DNA from: a virus | Taxonomy: Duplodnaviria > Heunggongvirae > Uroviricota > Caudoviricetes | Length of the DNA stretch: 39,557 bases | Reading direction: 5' to 3' (one strand) | IMG/VR virus record: IMGVR_UViG_3300029875_000298 | Shown: positions 1,553-17,355 of the stretch, one piece after another | How the letters are laid out: each line of letters opens with the position of its first letter | How positions within the stretch are numbered: position 1 is the stretch's first letter | The notes under the pieces: generated by a model | What the model was told of the DNA's origin: nothing | What the model saw: the letters and a program-made list of their open reading frames with translations, nothing else | Databases searched by the model: none | Made by a program: the position numbers and the translations under genes

Positions 1553-1741
1553 TCACGACGACTGAAGTTTCTCGCAATTAAAATTTATCAGTTTTACTTT
1601 CTGCTCTCTGGAAACGCCTGCTTCTTTTTTACCTGAGAGCATTTTTTCGCATTCTGATTTGGTTAATTTTGTTTTTGAGTACCTTGTCCAGTTAGTAGGA
1701 GTGCCACCTTCCTTTTCAATAGTGGCGGTAATTTTATACAT
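1553..1741 (-). CDS. ydaC: YdaC-like small protein, 62 aa
   Basis: Sequence MYKITATIEKEGGTPTNWTRYSK... recalled as Rac YdaC. ATG at 1741 overlaps the ralR stop by 8 nt; the 86-aa ORF-track version would overlap ralR by 80 nt. Confidence 0.5.
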   Translation of the reverse strand: MYKITATIEKEGGTPTNWTRYSKTKLTKSECEKMLSGKKEAGVSREQKVKLINFNCEKLQSS

Positions 1742-13090: not shown

Positions 13091-13552
13091 TTATTTGTTT
13101 TGTAATGCTTTTTTTACAACCATAATCATAGAGCTAATGACCTCCAGTGTTATATTTAATGATAATGCAATGGATAATATTTCAAACGTGGTAAATAATC
13201 GCGCTCTTGACATAAAAAACTCCCATTTTGGATATTCTAGCAAAGGTATGTTCATCTCCCTTAAATAAGGAATAAAAACGGATGCACCAAGACAAAAAAT
13301 CAGGATTTTCAAATCTGATTCCAGCTTGACAAAATAATCATCAAATACATGTTTATTATTTTGAGGGCAGATGTTGATTAGCATGCTAAAAATTACTGAT
13401 ATACCAGCGATGATGCCACCTAAGGTGGCACCAATAATACCAGCTGAAGACTGTTCGATTATAGAGTAAGTGTTTTTATCCTCTGAGGAAAAAATAAAGC
13501 AAATTACACCAAGAACAATTAGTCTCACCATCAAGGTTGCTAGTTTTTGCAT
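13091..13552 (-). CDS. small integral membrane protein, 153 aa, about four predicted TM helices; second gene of the candidate accessory cassette
   Basis: Hydrophobic segments LMVRLIVLGVICFIF, AGIIGATLGGIIAGISVIFSMLI, ILIFCLGASVFIPYL, FTTFEILSIALSLNITLEVISSMIMVV; start overlaps the upstream gene stop by 13 nt; AT-rich. No family recognised. Confidence 0.6.
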   Translation of the reverse strand: MQKLATLMVRLIVLGVICFIFSSEDKNTYSIIEQSSAGIIGATLGGIIAGISVIFSMLINICPQNNKHVFDDYFVKLESDLKILIFCLGASVFIPYLREMNIPLLEYPKWEFFMSRARLFTTFEILSIALSLNITLEVISSMIMVVKKALQNK

Positions 13553-14424
13553 TTTTCAAACCGATAATCTTTTCTTACTAGGGAAATAATGTCCTTTACG
13601 TCATTTGCAGAATAACCACTTAATGTGCATTCTGAAAGAGAACCATCTACAAAAATTAATTTTGCTGTAGGCTCACTATTTAAAGTAATACTTTTGGCTG
13701 TAGGACTCTTTTTCCCTTTTATCTGCCAACTTCCTCCGCCATCATTAGTCCAATCAACTAAAACATTTGCCCATGTGGAATCACGAAGATTAAGATTTCC
13801 ATCTTTATTTTCAAATGTTGTGGTTAGAGCAGTAGCATTGGTATCATCTTCTATTTTGTTTAAGGCGTCTGTTAGTGCTTTTTTACTATCCCCAAAAATA
13901 TTTGGCATAACAAGAGCAAATGTCACTTGCTCAATATGCCTTAACTTGTCATATTCAACCCAAAAGTTGTCCTTCTCCAGACAAGGTTCAATAAATATGC
14001 GTAATCCTTTTTCGACGAGGTAATCATTGTTAGATAATTCCTCAAACATCATTGCCGCATTGTGAGCACTTTTAAAAACAGTGGTTTTTCGTTCAATTAA
14101 AATAACTTGTTCTTGACGATCCCATAACCATACTACAGGAGGGAAACTTGGAACATTGTATTCTTGAAAGTCCTCATTGTAACCATGCAGTTTCTTTTGT
14201 TTCGAAATCAAACCTGCCATGACGCCATCAGTCGGGGCGACAGAAAGTTTTAATCTATACTGCCAGTTTTTATGGACAGATGGTGTTTGTGACACTCGTT
14301 TTATATTTTTTGATGCGTGAACGATCGCTTGCTCGAAGTGTTCAATACATCGCTCTTCGCCACTATGCTGAAACAAATCTGGATCTCTGGGCTTTAATAG
14401 TACGCGTAAAGCAAAAAAATACAT
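13540..14424 (-). CDS. hypothetical soluble protein, 294 aa; first gene of the candidate accessory cassette
   Basis: ATG at 14424 with GGAGA 6 nt upstream and a sigma70-like promoter just upstream; the ORF track extends to a GTG at 14460 that would overlap the predicted -10. Possible hydrophobic-D ... ExK arrangement (VVWLWD ... VILIERK). No family recognised. Confidence 0.6.
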   Translation of the reverse strand: MYFFALRVLLKPRDPDLFQHSGEERCIEHFEQAIVHASKNIKRVSQTPSVHKNWQYRLKLSVAPTDGVMAGLISKQKKLHGYNEDFQEYNVPSFPPVVWLWDRQEQVILIERKTTVFKSAHNAAMMFEELSNNDYLVEKGLRIFIEPCLEKDNFWVEYDKLRHIEQVTFALVMPNIFGDSKKALTDALNKIEDDTNATALTTTFENKDGNLNLRDSTWANVLVDWTNDGGGSWQIKGKKSPTAKSITLNSEPTAKLIFVDGSLSECTLSGYSANDVKDIISLVRKDYRFEKCKN

Positions 14425-14452
14425 TGAGAATCTCCATATAAAGTTTACCGCT

Positions 14453-14480
14453 ATTATCACTATTCCGAGGAAACATTCAA
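14453..14480 (-). promoter_or_regulatory. putative sigma70 promoter for the minus-strand two-gene cassette
   Basis: On the minus strand: TTGAAT (plus 14475-14480), 16-nt spacer, GATAAT (plus 14453-14458), then about 25 nt to GGAGA and the ATG at 14424. Confidence 0.45.
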
Positions 14481-14504
14481 TGGGGGGGCTTCAAACTAAA
14501 ATTG

Positions 14505-14533
14505 TTGGCAGCAACATGTCCGATAGGTAGAAT
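14505..14533 (+). promoter_or_regulatory. putative hok/mok mRNA promoter
   Basis: -35 TTGGCA (14505-14510), 17-nt spacer, -10 TAGAAT (14528-14533); predicted transcript from about 14540 to the terminator at 14960 is about 420 nt, close to the roughly 400-nt hok mRNA of plasmid R1. Confidence 0.45.
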
Positions 14534-14589
14534 TGCTGCGGGTGCTTGAGGCTATCTGCCTCGGGCATGCCACCAAAGGCAGATAGATA

Positions 14590-14670
14590 GAGAAAAGCCC
14601 CAGTTAACATTACGCGTCCGGCAAGACGCTTAACATTAATCTGAGGCCAATTTCATGCTTTGCACATGTA
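14590..14670 (-). ncRNA. sok: predicted Sok-like antisense RNA (approximate position, inferred from locus architecture)
   Basis: hok/mok loci carry a short antisense RNA over the mok translation-initiation region; a weak minus-strand promoter candidate (TTGCCT-17 nt-TAACCT) lies just inside the mok 5' end. Boundaries were not resolved. Confidence 0.3.
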
Positions 14671-14867
14671 GGTTAGCCTCTTACGTGCCGAAAGGCAAGG
14701 AGAAGCAGACTATGAAGCAGCAAAAGGCGATGTTAATCGCCCTGATCGTCATCTGTTTAACCGTCATAGTGACGGCACTGGTAACGAGGAAAGACCTCTG
14801 CGAGGTACGAATCCGAACCGGGCAGACGGAGGTCGCTGTCTTCGTAGACTACGAATCTAGAGAGTAA
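14655..14867 (+). CDS. mok: Mok (modulation of killing) reading frame, 70 aa, in frame with and containing hok
   Basis: MLCTCRLASYVPKGKEKQT extension upstream of and in frame with Hok, as in chromosomal hok/mok loci. Confidence 0.7.
   Translation: MLCTCRLASYVPKGKEKQTMKQQKAMLIALIVICLTVIVTALVTRKDLCEVRIRTGQTEVAVFVDYESRE
14712..14867 (+). CDS. hok: Hok/Gef-family type I toxin, 51 aa
   Basis: MKQQKAMLIALIVICLTVIVTALVTRKDLCEVRIRTGQTEVAVFVDYESRE: single TM helix plus the conserved KDLCEV.IRTGQTEVAVF core of Hok/Gef proteins. Confidence 0.85.
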   Translation: MKQQKAMLIALIVICLTVIVTALVTRKDLCEVRIRTGQTEVAVFVDYESRE

Positions 14868-14937
14868 GAGTGACCAGGCGGGAGAGTAATCTCCCGCCAC
14901 CTCTGATGTGTCAGGCATCCTCAATGCACCCACACTT

Positions 14938-14960
14938 AACCCGCTTCGGCGGGTTTTTGT
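14938..14960 (+). terminator. intrinsic terminator at the hok mRNA 3' end
   Basis: CCCGC-TTCG-GCGGG hairpin followed by TTTTTGTTTTT. Confidence 0.65.
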
Positions 14961-15089
14961 TTTTATTTTCAACGCGTTTGAAGTTTTGGATAGTGCCGGA
15001 ATAGAATCAAAAATACTTAAGTAGCGCGCAGGGAGAAGAGGGATGGACCCCGAACAGGGGAGTGCTATTTATCTGGAAGGATTCTGTTG

Positions 15090-15350
15090 ATGAAAATCGA
15101 AGAATTGCGTGAAATTTTTAGTGAAAATGGCCTCTATACTGTGCGCGTTGAGAATGGCGCTATTGTCAGTCACTGCCGTATTAAATGTTTACAGTCTCAA
15201 CAAAGGAAGAGTGGAGCTGCGTTATTTTATTTTTGTAATGGACTTCTGACGGACGGTTTTATTTTGCGTGAGGACGAATTTGTCACATCATTAGGGGTTT
15301 TGAAAGAGATTGGTTTTAAGGCTGGTTTTTCTGCTTTTGCTGAAGAATAA
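15090..15350 (+). CDS. hypothetical protein, 86 aa, four Cys
   Basis: ATG at 15090 with GGAAGG 8 nt upstream; no family recognised. Confidence 0.4.
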   Translation: MKIEELREIFSENGLYTVRVENGAIVSHCRIKCLQSQQRKSGAALFYFCNGLLTDGFILREDEFVTSLGVLKEIGFKAGFSAFAEE

Positions 15351-17201: not shown

Positions 17202-17277
<76 letters not shown>

Positions 17278-17280
17278 TAT

Positions 17281-17355
<75 letters not shown>

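What the first reader, a model, noticed from the sequence alone, without database searches (positions are those of the whole stretch)
14505..14960. Apparently intact hok/mok/sok-type toxin locus with 5'/3' fold-back complementarity
The locus has a predicted promoter (TTGGCA-17 nt-TAGAAT), a 9-bp-stem hairpin near the 5' end (CTATCTGCC 14552-14560 with GGCAGATAG 14578-14586), mok (70 codons) in frame with a 51-aa Hok toxin, and a strong terminator. A 3' segment CCTCAATGCACC (14919-14930) is nearly perfectly complementary to GGTGCTTGAGG at the predicted 5' end (14541-14551), which is the fold-back-inhibition arrangement described for hok mRNAs. K-12 Rac carries no hok locus as far as I recall, so this looks like acquired cargo; hok/sok has been reported to exclude T4.
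Basis: partly seen in the sequence, partly recalled or inferred. Interest (0 to 1): 0.5.

Follow-up and report, generated by a model that had tools for sequence, protein, structure and literature searches.

The report
Intact hok/sok toxin locus in prophage
This is an ordinary, already catalogued hok/mok/sok (hokD/hokW-type) RNA-controlled toxin–antitoxin cassette. It sits at its usual place in a Rac-like lambdoid prophage, and every known regulatory element is recognisable and undisrupted.

Summary
The locus is a complete type I toxin–antitoxin cassette of the hok/sok family.

- **Family hits.** It hits Rfam RF01794 (103 bits, cut-off 59) and Pfam HOK_GEF (4e-23).
- **Fold-back pairing.** The predicted full-length mRNA pairs its 5' end (14540-14551) with 14919-14931. 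That pairing covaries across 52 distinct loci.
- **Antisense Sok.** The Sok gene, its promoter and its terminator align without breaks to sokW of phage 933W/Sp5, which has been tested experimentally.
- **Not novel.** DNA at least 80% identical occurs in 4,724 of 5,426 complete E. coli genomes. The exact 551-nt locus is in a public gut metagenome. The exact Hok protein is on at least 1,000 contigs.
- **Not acquired cargo.** Full-length Rac-like prophages carry hok at this same position. K-12 Rac lacks it because of an internal deletion from ydaW to rzpR.
- **Allele-specific features.** There is a 4-nt duplication (14587-14590) between the 5' hairpin and the anti-SD box, predicted to cost about 1.7 kcal/mol. 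The Sok recognition tail is also diverged.

The mechanism is inferred to be the canonical one. The biological role (lysis helper, prophage retention or phage exclusion) is untested. Interest is low.

The parts
14505..14533 (+). hok/mok mRNA promoter: TTGGCA (-35), 17-nt spacer, TAGAAT (-10)
   Evidence: 10 of 12 matches. The -10 and its distance to the mRNA start are the same as in R1, 933W and K-12 hokC. Homology with other loci begins at the -10; the -35 lies in locus-specific flank.
14540..14551 (+). Predicted mRNA 5' end, the tac (translational activator) element GGGUGCUUGAGG
   Evidence: Position 1 of Rfam RF01794. It pairs with fbi in the full-length MFE. It is invariant in 13 distinct hokD/W-type loci.
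14552..14586 (+). 5' hairpin (10-bp stem 14552-14561 / 14577-14586). Bases 14558-14568 can alternatively pair with tac, forming the metastable hairpin.
   Evidence: I4. The MFE of the truncated RNA pairs 14542-14552 with 14558-14568.
14587..14590 (+). Allele-specific 4-nt tandem duplication (AUAG) between the 5' hairpin and ucb
   Evidence: Absent from 933W, MN652886 and NY1601. Absent from all 5,426 complete E. coli genomes, best match 94.8%. No match in IMG/VR. Present in metagenome contig L089. It raises the predicted cost of the open tac-ucb form from +0.8 to +2.5 kcal/mol.
14593..14601 (+). ucb / anti-SD box AAAAGCCCC
   Evidence: It pairs with the mok SD (GCC 14597-14599 with GGC 14645-14647) in the full-length MFE. 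It is the partner of tac in the Rfam consensus structure. Its role follows R1 (PMC9841398).
14593..14663 (-). Sok antisense RNA, about 71 nt: 15-nt single-stranded 5' tail, long hairpin, UUUU tail. It covers the mok SD and AUG.
   Evidence: Coordinates were transferred from annotated sokW of 933W. The fold is -28.6 kcal/mol, z = -4.7.
14670..14698 (-). Sok promoter: TTGCCT (14698-14693), 17-nt spacer, TAACCT (14675-14670)
   Evidence: Identical to 933W. Mutating this -10 in hokW-sokW abolished antitoxin activity (PMC8621323, Fig. 1E and primer YO-421). It was not listed by the consensus scan because the -10 matches only 3 of 6 positions.
14643..14646 (+). mok Shine-Dalgarno GAGG, 8 nt before the AUG
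   Evidence: Read directly from the sequence. It is paired in the closed form. It corresponds to GAGG 105-108 of R1 (PMC9841398).
14655..14867 (+). mok reading frame, 70 codons, in frame with hok
   Evidence: The exact 70-aa product is in public databases, with 24 carrying contigs read.
14675..14680 (+). dcb-like box AGCCUC, which pairs with the mok SD region in the open (truncated) form to build the Sok target hairpin. The predicted 7-nt loop is 14658-14664 (CUUUGCA).
   Evidence: Constrained fold. The element is named by analogy with R1 (PMC9841398). I read the loop positions off the dot-bracket string.
14697..14702 (+). hok Shine-Dalgarno AAGGAG, 9 nt before the AUG
   Evidence: Read directly from the sequence. 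The homology retained by the K-12 hokD remnant begins just upstream of this element.
14712..14867 (+). hok toxin gene, 51 aa
   Evidence: Pfam PF01848, 4.3e-23 and 81 bits against a cut-off of 22. PHROG 251 'MokW-like host killing', 1.3e-32. It is 96% identical to HokW and 92% to HokD. The exact protein is on at least 1,000 contigs.
14849..14855 (+). CUACGAA containing the Tyr47 codon UAC (A14851): candidate TadA A-to-I (Tyr-to-Cys) editing site
   Evidence: Identical to the anticodon loop of tRNA-Arg(ACG) argQ. The full-length MFE places it as a 7-nt loop on stem 14845-14848 / 14856-14859. Editing at the equivalent Tyr of hokC, hokD and hokE is reported in PMC12214031. The isolated hairpin is not significantly stable.
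14877..14898 (+). 3' stem-loop (9 bp, GUAA loop): predicted 3' end and protective hairpin of the processed mRNA, about 361 nt
   Evidence: I6. Homologues vary on both arms of the stem. The equivalent R1 hairpin is needed for the stability of the truncated mRNA (PMC9841398).
14919..14931 (+). fbi (fold-back inhibitory) element CCUCAA-U-GCACCC
14938..14969 (+). Intrinsic terminator (stem 14938-14955, then a T-rich run)

Best explanation
The locus is a complete hok/mok/sok type I toxin–antitoxin cassette of the hokD/hokW subgroup. It is carried at its standard position, between the replication module and the Q antiterminator module, in a Rac-family lambdoid prophage.

The mechanism below is inferred by homology to R1 hok/sok and to hokW/sokW:

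1. A constitutive promoter (14505-14533) makes an mRNA of about 420 nt starting at G14540.
2. In the full-length mRNA the 5' tac element (14540-14551) pairs with the 3' fbi element (14919-14931). The anti-SD box (14597-14599) sequesters the mok Shine-Dalgarno sequence (14643-14646). The RNA can therefore be neither translated nor bound by Sok.
3. Slow 3' trimming back to the hairpin at 14877-14898 removes fbi.
4. tac then pairs with the anti-SD box. This frees the mok ribosome-binding site and forms the Sok target hairpin.
5. The short-lived Sok RNA (about 71 nt, minus strand, 14663 to 14593) base-pairs over the mok SD and AUG and triggers RNase III cleavage.
6. When Sok supply stops (loss of the prophage, prophage induction, or transcription shut-off by an infecting phage), mok is translated. 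The coupled translation of hok yields a 51-aa inner-membrane peptide that collapses the membrane potential.

The most likely biological role here, by analogy with the 93%-identical hokW/sokW, is to hasten host lysis and phage release on induction. Prophage retention and phage exclusion are alternatives.
For: Shown here:
- Rfam RF01794 at 103 bits against a gathering score of 59, full length. Pfam HOK_GEF at 4e-23.
- Gap-free, element-by-element alignment to annotated mokW/hokW/sokW.
- tac-fbi pairing appears in the MFE of a transcript with z = -8.2. Chance gives it in 5 of 5000 shuffles.
- Covariation of tac position 4 with fbi across 52 distinct loci: 26 U/A, 21 C/G, 2 U/G, 0 C/A. The fbi element always lies 44-57 nt after the stop codon.
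- The Sok candidate folds as a single-stranded tail plus a terminator-like hairpin, z = -4.7.
- The Sok promoter is identical to that of sokW.
- The predicted processed length, 14540-14900, is 361 nt.
- The exact allele recurs on many independent contigs with the same neighbours.

From the literature:
- HokW is toxic, sokW neutralises it, and mutation of the sokW -10 abolishes protection. Sok disappears and HokW appears on mitomycin C induction. Deleting the locus delays growth arrest and halves phage release (PMC8621323).
- The roles of tac, fbi, ucb, dcb and the 3' hairpin in R1 are validated by mutagenesis (PMC9841398).
Against: - There are no expression or toxicity data for this allele.
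- The minimum-energy fold of the processed RNA stays in the closed/metastable form, with the open tac-ucb form 2.5 kcal/mol higher. The same holds for the functional controls (R1-type +1.5, 933W +1.7), so the calculation does not discriminate.
- The allele-specific 4-nt duplication adds about 1.7 kcal/mol to that cost.
- The Sok -10 (TAACCT) is a weak consensus match.
- NCBIfam Hok models score below their curated cut-offs (53 against 73 bits). This reflects subfamily models, not absence of homology.
Confidence: 0.85

Rival explanations
1. The locus is structurally intact but functionally silent: a hitch-hiking remnant that no longer kills. One possible cause is that the 4-nt duplication between the 5' hairpin and the anti-SD box keeps the processed mRNA locked in the closed, untranslatable form.
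For: - The duplication is unique to this allele among 5,426 complete E. coli genomes. It raises the predicted cost of the open conformation from +0.8 to +2.5 kcal/mol, above the R1-type, 933W and NY1601 controls.
- In R1, single substitutions that stabilise the closed form or weaken the tac stem abolish toxicity (PMC9841398).
- Several chromosomal hok loci failed post-segregational killing tests.
Against: - The energy difference lies within the error of the nearest-neighbour model.
- All sequence elements, both promoters and the toxin ORF are unbroken.
- The exact allele persists at 100% identity over 551 nt in an independent metagenome contig. The same Mok is on at least 24 contigs with conserved neighbours.
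- The Hok protein is a very common allele and differs from toxic HokW only in its last two residues.
Confidence: 0.12
2. The cassette is functional, but its selected role is abortive-infection defence of the lysogen against lytic phages such as T4, rather than helping the prophage's own lysis or retention.
For: - R1 hok/sok on a high-copy plasmid reduced T4 plating efficiency by 42% and plaque size by about 85% (Pecota and Wood 1996, as cited in PMC8621323).
- Phage-induced shut-off of host transcription would deplete the unstable Sok RNA.
- The locus lies next to a variable cargo slot in the prophage.
Against: - The only tested close relative, hokW/sokW, promotes release of its own phage (PMC8621323).
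- PADLOC has no model matching this Hok or its neighbours.
- The T4 effect of R1 hok/sok was modest and needed high copy number.
Confidence: 0.25
3. The 5'/3' complementarity and the small ORFs are a chance resemblance in non-coding prophage DNA.
For: Promoter-like hexamer pairs are not rare in this AT-rich region: 4 found against 1.2 expected.
Against: Rfam E = 1.8e-22, Pfam E = 4e-23, covariation of tac with fbi, and thousands of homologous loci.
Confidence: 0.01

Closest known systems
mokW/hokW/sokW of Stx2 phage 933W / Sakai prophage Sp5 (experimentally shown type I TA; PMC8621323)
   Same: - About 93% DNA identity from the -10 box to fbi.
- Hok is 96% identical.
- mok is in frame with hok.
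- tac, ucb, the Sok hairpin, the Sok promoter and the hok SD are identical.
- Both lie in a lambdoid prophage.
   Different: - 7 of the first 16 nt of the Sok 5' tail, and hence of its target loop, differ.
- This allele has the 4-nt duplication at 14587-14590 and 2 extra nt after the stop codon (14870-14871).
- The C-terminus is ...YESRE rather than ...YESEK.
- In 933W, homology ends just after fbi, so that locus has a different terminator.
- The genomic position within the phage differs.
hokD (relF) of K-12 cryptic prophage Qin
   Same: - Hok is 92% identical.
- The 3' UTR has the same protective hairpin, fbi and terminator, and the same downstream neighbour, rem.
- RefSeq names most homologues of this locus 'hokD'.
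   Different: K-12 hokD keeps homology only from just upstream of the hok SD onward. The promoter, tac, ucb, mok start and Sok are replaced by relBE. The window locus is the undisrupted form of what K-12 hokD is a remnant of.
hokC (gef)/mokC/sokC of E. coli K-12
   Same: - Same architecture with an in-frame mok.
- Same tac sequence (GGGUGCUUGAGG).
- Same Sok start geometry.
- Hok is 78% identical.
   Different: In K-12 hokC, IS186 sits about 20 bp after the stop codon, and homology ends inside the 3' hairpin, so fbi is gone. hokC is a chromosomal locus, not a prophage one.
hok/mok/sok (parB) of plasmid R1, the mechanistic paradigm
   Same: All named elements are present in the same order with similar spacing: -10 to start, tac, metastable hairpin, ucb, mok SD, Sok, 3' hairpin, fbi, terminator. 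The processed RNAs are of similar predicted length: 361 nt here and 356 nt for the R1-type control cut the same way.
   Different: - Hok is only 43% identical.
- tac and fbi are the GGCGC/GCGCC variant.
- R1 mok is in a different frame from hok, by my own count from the R1-type sequence printed.
- R1 is a plasmid, where the proven role is post-segregational killing.

Membership tests
[quoted passage not shown] | Small hydrophobic Hok/Gef-family toxin ORF (Pfam PF01848) | tested here: met
   81.1 bits, E = 4.3e-23, cut-off 22. PHROG 251, E = 1.3e-32. The family-invariant C15, T17, L29, E31 and E40 are present, as is the near-invariant Cys30.
[quoted passage not shown] | hok mRNA leader with the conserved tac-ucb / target-hairpin structure (Rfam RF01794) | tested here: met
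   103 bits against a gathering score of 59, model positions 1-157 of 157, E = 1.8e-22.
[quoted passage not shown] | Overlapping upstream mok frame with its own SD, through which hok is translated | tested here: met
   70-codon ORF at 14655-14867 with GAGG 8 nt upstream, overlapping hok in frame. Translational coupling itself is not testable here.
[quoted passage not shown] | 5'-3' end pairing (tac/fbi) that locks the full-length mRNA, supported by covariation | tested here: met
   12 bp with one bulge in the MFE. Chance gives it in 5 of 5000 shuffles. Across 52 distinct loci the pairs are 26 U/A, 21 C/G, 2 U/G and 0 C/A.
[quoted passage not shown] | Anti-SD (ucb) sequestration of the mok SD in the closed form, with an alternative tac-ucb stem in the processed form | tested here: inconclusive
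   The closed pairing is predicted. The open form is 2.5 kcal/mol above the MFE, but it is also 1.4-1.7 above the MFE in the functional controls. Thermodynamic prediction cannot decide.
[quoted passage not shown] | Stable 3' stem-loop that defines and protects the end of the processed mRNA | tested here: met
   Perfect 9-bp stem at 14877-14898. Homologues vary on both arms. The processing itself is not testable here.
[quoted passage not shown] | cis-encoded antisense Sok RNA with its own promoter, single-stranded 5' tail and terminator hairpin, overlapping the mok translation initiation region | tested here: met
   The sequence is collinear with annotated sokW and sokC. The promoter is identical to sokW. 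The fold has z = -4.7. Expression was not tested.
[quoted passage not shown] | Hok kills when Sok is removed, and Sok neutralises Hok | not testable with these tools
   Shown for hokW/sokW (PMC8621323) and R1 (PMC9841398), not for this allele.
Rac-family lambdoid prophage (context of the locus) | intR-xisR-ralR/ralA-recT-recE-kilR-sieB ... trkG gene order | tested here: met
   84-88% of window 1-25000 aligns at 96-98% identity to the Rac-type prophages of strains MEI003, N1420 and 042. RalA has an Rfam hit at 1557-1735. N1420 carries hokD at the syntenic site.
TadA A-to-I mRNA editing substrates (Tyr UAC to Cys) | UACG motif presented in a tRNA-Arg2-like anticodon loop | tested here: inconclusive
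   CUACGAA at 14849-14855 equals the argQ anticodon loop and is a 7-nt loop in the full-length MFE. The isolated hairpin is not more stable than shuffles, and a competing hairpin exists. Editing was not tested.

The most novel reading that the evidence does not exclude
The Sok 5' tail and its target loop (14648-14667) may be a specificity-determining hypervariable patch. Across 13 distinct hokD/W-type loci, 13 of its 20 columns vary. That compares with 4 of 51 in the adjacent Sok hairpin and about 9% in the hok coding region. This would let several hok/sok cassettes on co-resident prophages work without cross-neutralisation. This allele, with 7 of 16 tail positions different from SokW and a 4-nt spacer duplication that shifts the closed/open equilibrium, would then be a distinct specificity and timing class.
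Probability: 0.25. Interest if true: 0.3.

Novelty: already known. Interest (0 to 1): 0.08.

Why it matters
It matters little beyond correct annotation.

- The locus should be labelled mok/hok/sok (hokD/hokW type). The antisense Sok gene is one that automated pipelines omit.
- It is a tidy natural example of the undisrupted form of which K-12 hokD and hokC are each a different half.
- It shows that K-12 Rac is a deletion derivative that lost this cassette.
- The allele could serve as a natural variant for testing how spacer length between the 5' hairpin and the anti-SD box tunes the hok mRNA refolding switch.

Tried and rejected
- A protein alignment of eight diverse Hok sequences was too divergent for the search for related loci. 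A five-sequence alignment worked.
- I hoped that folding the processed RNA (14540-14900) would show the open tac-ucb form. It did not, but neither did the R1-type, 933W or NY1601 controls. MFE prediction was therefore dropped as a test of function.
- I looked for the 4-nt-duplication allele in complete E. coli genomes and in IMG/VR. Neither search found it. An exact-protein look-up then recovered it in public assemblies. This rules out a sequencing artefact or a one-off mutation.
- The local fold of the TadA-like hairpin is not significant in isolation, so that point is kept only as a side note.
- 'Acquired cargo relative to Rac' was rejected.
- The two upstream ORFs gave no hits in Pfam, PHROGs, NCBIfam, PADLOC or PDB sequences.

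Full report
**Observation**

- Promoter: TTGGCA-17-TAGAAT lies at 14505-14533, matching 10 of 12 consensus positions.
- 5' hairpin: a perfect inverted repeat pairs 14552-14561 with 14577-14586.
- Reading frames: a 70-codon ORF (14655-14867) contains, in the same frame, a 51-codon ORF (14712-14867).
- Terminator: the stem is at 14938-14955 and is followed by a T-run.
- End-pairing: the 5' segment GGGUGCUUGAGG (14540-14551) pairs with CCUCAA-U-GCACCC (14919-14931). This gives 12 bp with U14925 bulged, at -21.1 kcal/mol.

The end-pairing is not chance. Only 5 of 5000 shuffles of the 3' UTR reach that energy. Over the whole window, both strands, the only other equally good site is the trivial reverse complement of the 5' end itself. 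The 421-nt transcript folds far better than shuffles (z = -8.2), and its minimum-energy structure uses the end-pairing.

**What it is**

Rfam RF01794 is named 'sok' but models the hok mRNA leader. It matches 14540-14714 on the plus strand over its full length, at 103 bits against a gathering score of 59. The 51-aa product is a Hok/Gef protein (Pfam 4.3e-23; PHROG 'MokW-like host killing' 1.3e-32).

DNA searches place the locus in the hokD/hokW group:

- Similar DNA (at least 80% identical) occurs in 4,724 of 5,426 complete E. coli genomes, with a median of 2 and up to 10 copies per genome. It is usually annotated hokD.
- It also occurs in 110 phage records, including 933W, where mokW, hokW and the antisense sokW are annotated.

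Alignment to 933W, to the GenBank 'phage Rac' fragment MN652886 and to strain NY1601 is collinear from the -10 box to the terminator. There is no IS element, frameshift or premature stop.

**Antisense gene**

I transferred the sokW annotation onto the window. Sok would start at 14663 on the minus strand, 7 nt downstream of a TAACCT -10 (14675-14670). A TTGCCT -35 lies 17 nt further upstream (14698-14693). Sok would end in the U-run at 14596-14593.

The 71-nt RNA folds into a 15-nt single-stranded 5' tail plus a long terminator-like hairpin (-28.6 kcal/mol, z = -4.7). It is complementary to the mok SD (14643-14646) and AUG (14655).

The promoter is identical to that of sokW. In hokW/sokW, mutation of this -10 abolished protection against HokW (PMC8621323). 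The consensus scan misses this promoter because its -10 matches only 3 of 6 positions.

**Regulatory anatomy**

In the full-length MFE:

- tac (14540-14551) pairs with fbi (14919-14931).
- The mok start region (14655-14673) pairs with 14899-14918.
- The mok SD pairs with the anti-SD box (GCC 14597-14599 with GGC 14645-14647).

A perfect 9-bp hairpin at 14877-14898 corresponds to the R1 hairpin that protects the 3' end of the processed mRNA (PMC9841398). Trimming to this hairpin would give a 361-nt RNA. An R1-type control cut the same way is 356 nt.

When the tac-ucb stem is imposed, the SD region (GAGGC, 14643-14647) pairs instead with 14676-14680. This builds a hairpin whose loop I read as 14658-14664, which faces the 5' end of Sok.

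The unconstrained MFE of the processed RNA stays in the closed/metastable form. The open form is 2.5 kcal/mol higher. The same holds for the R1-type (+1.5), 933W (+1.7) and NY1601 (+1.4) controls. The calculation therefore cannot judge function.

**Phylogenetic support**

I fetched 80 loci from GTDB species representatives. Of these and the reference loci, 55 (52 distinct) have a recognisable tac and enough 3' sequence. The best tac partner almost always lies 44-57 nt after the stop codon.

Position 4 of tac covaries with its fbi partner:

| tac position 4 / fbi partner | Distinct loci |
|---|---|
| U / A | 26 |
| C / G | 21 |
| U / G | 2 |
| C / A | 0 |
| Other (no clear fbi match; at least one, L024, lies at the K-12 hokC position and has lost fbi) | 3 |

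Related sequences inflate them, so they represent few independent events. Even so, the pattern matches the published covariation analysis of the family, which I recall from Gultyaev, Franch and Gerdes 1997 and did not check here.

**Intactness relative to tested homologues**

Hok differs from toxic HokW only in its last two residues and is 92% identical to HokD. The exact 51-aa sequence is on at least 1,000 public contigs. The exact 70-aa Mok is also in the public collection, with 24 carrying contigs read. A gut-metagenome scaffold is 100% identical over 551 nt and has the same neighbours.

Four features are specific to this allele:

1. A 4-nt tandem duplication at 14587-14590, between the 5' hairpin and the anti-SD box. 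It is absent from all 5,426 complete genomes and gave no match in IMG/VR. It is predicted to cost about 1.7 kcal/mol in the open form.
2. Two extra nucleotides after the stop codon, shared with L009.
3. An A at 14709 where the other 12 distinct loci have G.
4. Seven differences from SokW in the first 16 nt of Sok.

None of these disrupts a known element.

**Context, and the 'acquired cargo' idea**

Window 1-25000 aligns at 96-98% identity over 84-88% of its length to the Rac-type prophages of strains MEI003, N1420 and 042.

In N1420 the gene order is ydaU-ydaV-DUF1627-DUF977-(QueH)-hokD-...-DUF1367-DUF1364-DUF1133(Q)-tRNAs-lysis-trkG. MN652886 ('Escherichia phage Rac') annotates mok and hok between ydaW/lygF and rem/irsA/ybcO/q.

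In K-12 Rac, ydaW is shortened and abuts the rzpR pseudogene. K-12 has therefore lost the whole segment that holds hok.

So hok is a standard component of this prophage family, not an acquisition. What varies is the slot immediately upstream of hok:

- two orphan ORFs here, in L089 and in NY1601;
- QueH in N1420;
- different small ORFs in MN652886.

**K-12 relatives**

- hokD in Qin retains homology only from just upstream of the hok SD onward, including fbi, the terminator and the neighbour rem. Its leader is replaced by relBE.
- hokC keeps the leader, but IS186 truncates it within the 3' hairpin.

This agrees with the literature statement that the K-12 copies are inactivated by IS elements or rearrangement (PMC12214031).

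**Mechanism and role**

The canonical hok/sok mechanism is inferred by homology (PMC9841398). It runs as follows: an end-paired inert mRNA, slow 3' processing, refolding, then either Sok binding with RNase III decay or mok-coupled hok translation and membrane damage.

For the biological role, the closest tested relative, hokW/sokW, loses Sok on RecA-dependent induction. It produces HokW about an hour before endolysin, advances growth arrest by about 40 min and doubles phage release (PMC8621323).

R1 hok/sok on a high-copy plasmid modestly inhibits T4 (cited in PMC8621323). A survey preprint finds hok enriched in prophages but not near defence systems (bioRxiv 10.1101/2025.08.07.668861).

I therefore rank the roles in this order: lysis or induction helper, or prophage retention, first; phage exclusion second. 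None was tested for this allele.

**Verdict**

The item is an already known, very common kind of locus. Interest is low.

Noticed in passing
window 13091-14460 (minus strand): ORFs 13540-14424 (294 aa; 306 aa from the GTG at 14460) and 13091-13552 (153 aa, hydrophobic): Two overlapping orphan ORFs lie directly upstream of hok and are transcribed away from it. They occupy the slot that holds QueH in strain N1420. They have no hit in Pfam, PHROGs, NCBIfam, PADLOC or PDB sequences. The same pair sits next to hok in NY1601 and in metagenome contig L089. A soluble protein plus a small, apparently membrane-spanning protein in a prophage cargo slot could be an unrecognised defence or exclusion module.
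   Followed up: partly
window 14845-14859 (hok codon 47, A14851): The Tyr47 codon UAC sits in CUACGAA, which is identical to the anticodon loop of tRNA-Arg(ACG) argQ. In the full-length MFE it is presented as a 7-nt loop on a 4-bp stem. This is probably a TadA A-to-I (Tyr-to-Cys) editing site, like those reported for hokC, hokD and hokE (PMC12214031). The local hairpin is not significant on its own, and a competing palindrome UUCGUAG/CUACGAA exists.
   Followed up: partly
window 14648-14667: The stretch encoding the Sok 5' tail, the target loop and the first mok codons is the most variable part of the locus. Across 13 distinct hokD/W-type loci, 13 of its 20 columns vary, against 4 of 51 in the adjacent Sok hairpin. 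This may mean relaxed constraint, or selection for non-cross-reacting Sok specificities.
   Followed up: partly
window 1557-1735 (+): A full-length RalA sRNA (Rfam RF02694, 215 bits) is present. It is the antitoxin of the RalR DNase type I toxin-antitoxin system. The prophage therefore carries two unrelated type I systems.
   Followed up: no
window 17202-17274 and 17281-17352 (+): Two adjacent tRNA genes lie downstream of the Q-antiterminator region. Strain N1420 has tRNA-Thr and tRNA-Gly at the syntenic place.
   Followed up: no
window 14482-14488: A G7 homopolymer lies between the orphan ORF's promoter-like site (minus strand, 14480-14453) and the hok promoter. The run is about 12 G in NY1601. 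It is a length-variable tract of unknown consequence.
   Followed up: no
window 15087-15350 (+): The gene just downstream of hok is a Rem homologue (PF27490 in L089; PHROG 340). It preserves the hokD-rem adjacency seen in K-12 Qin.
   Followed up: partly
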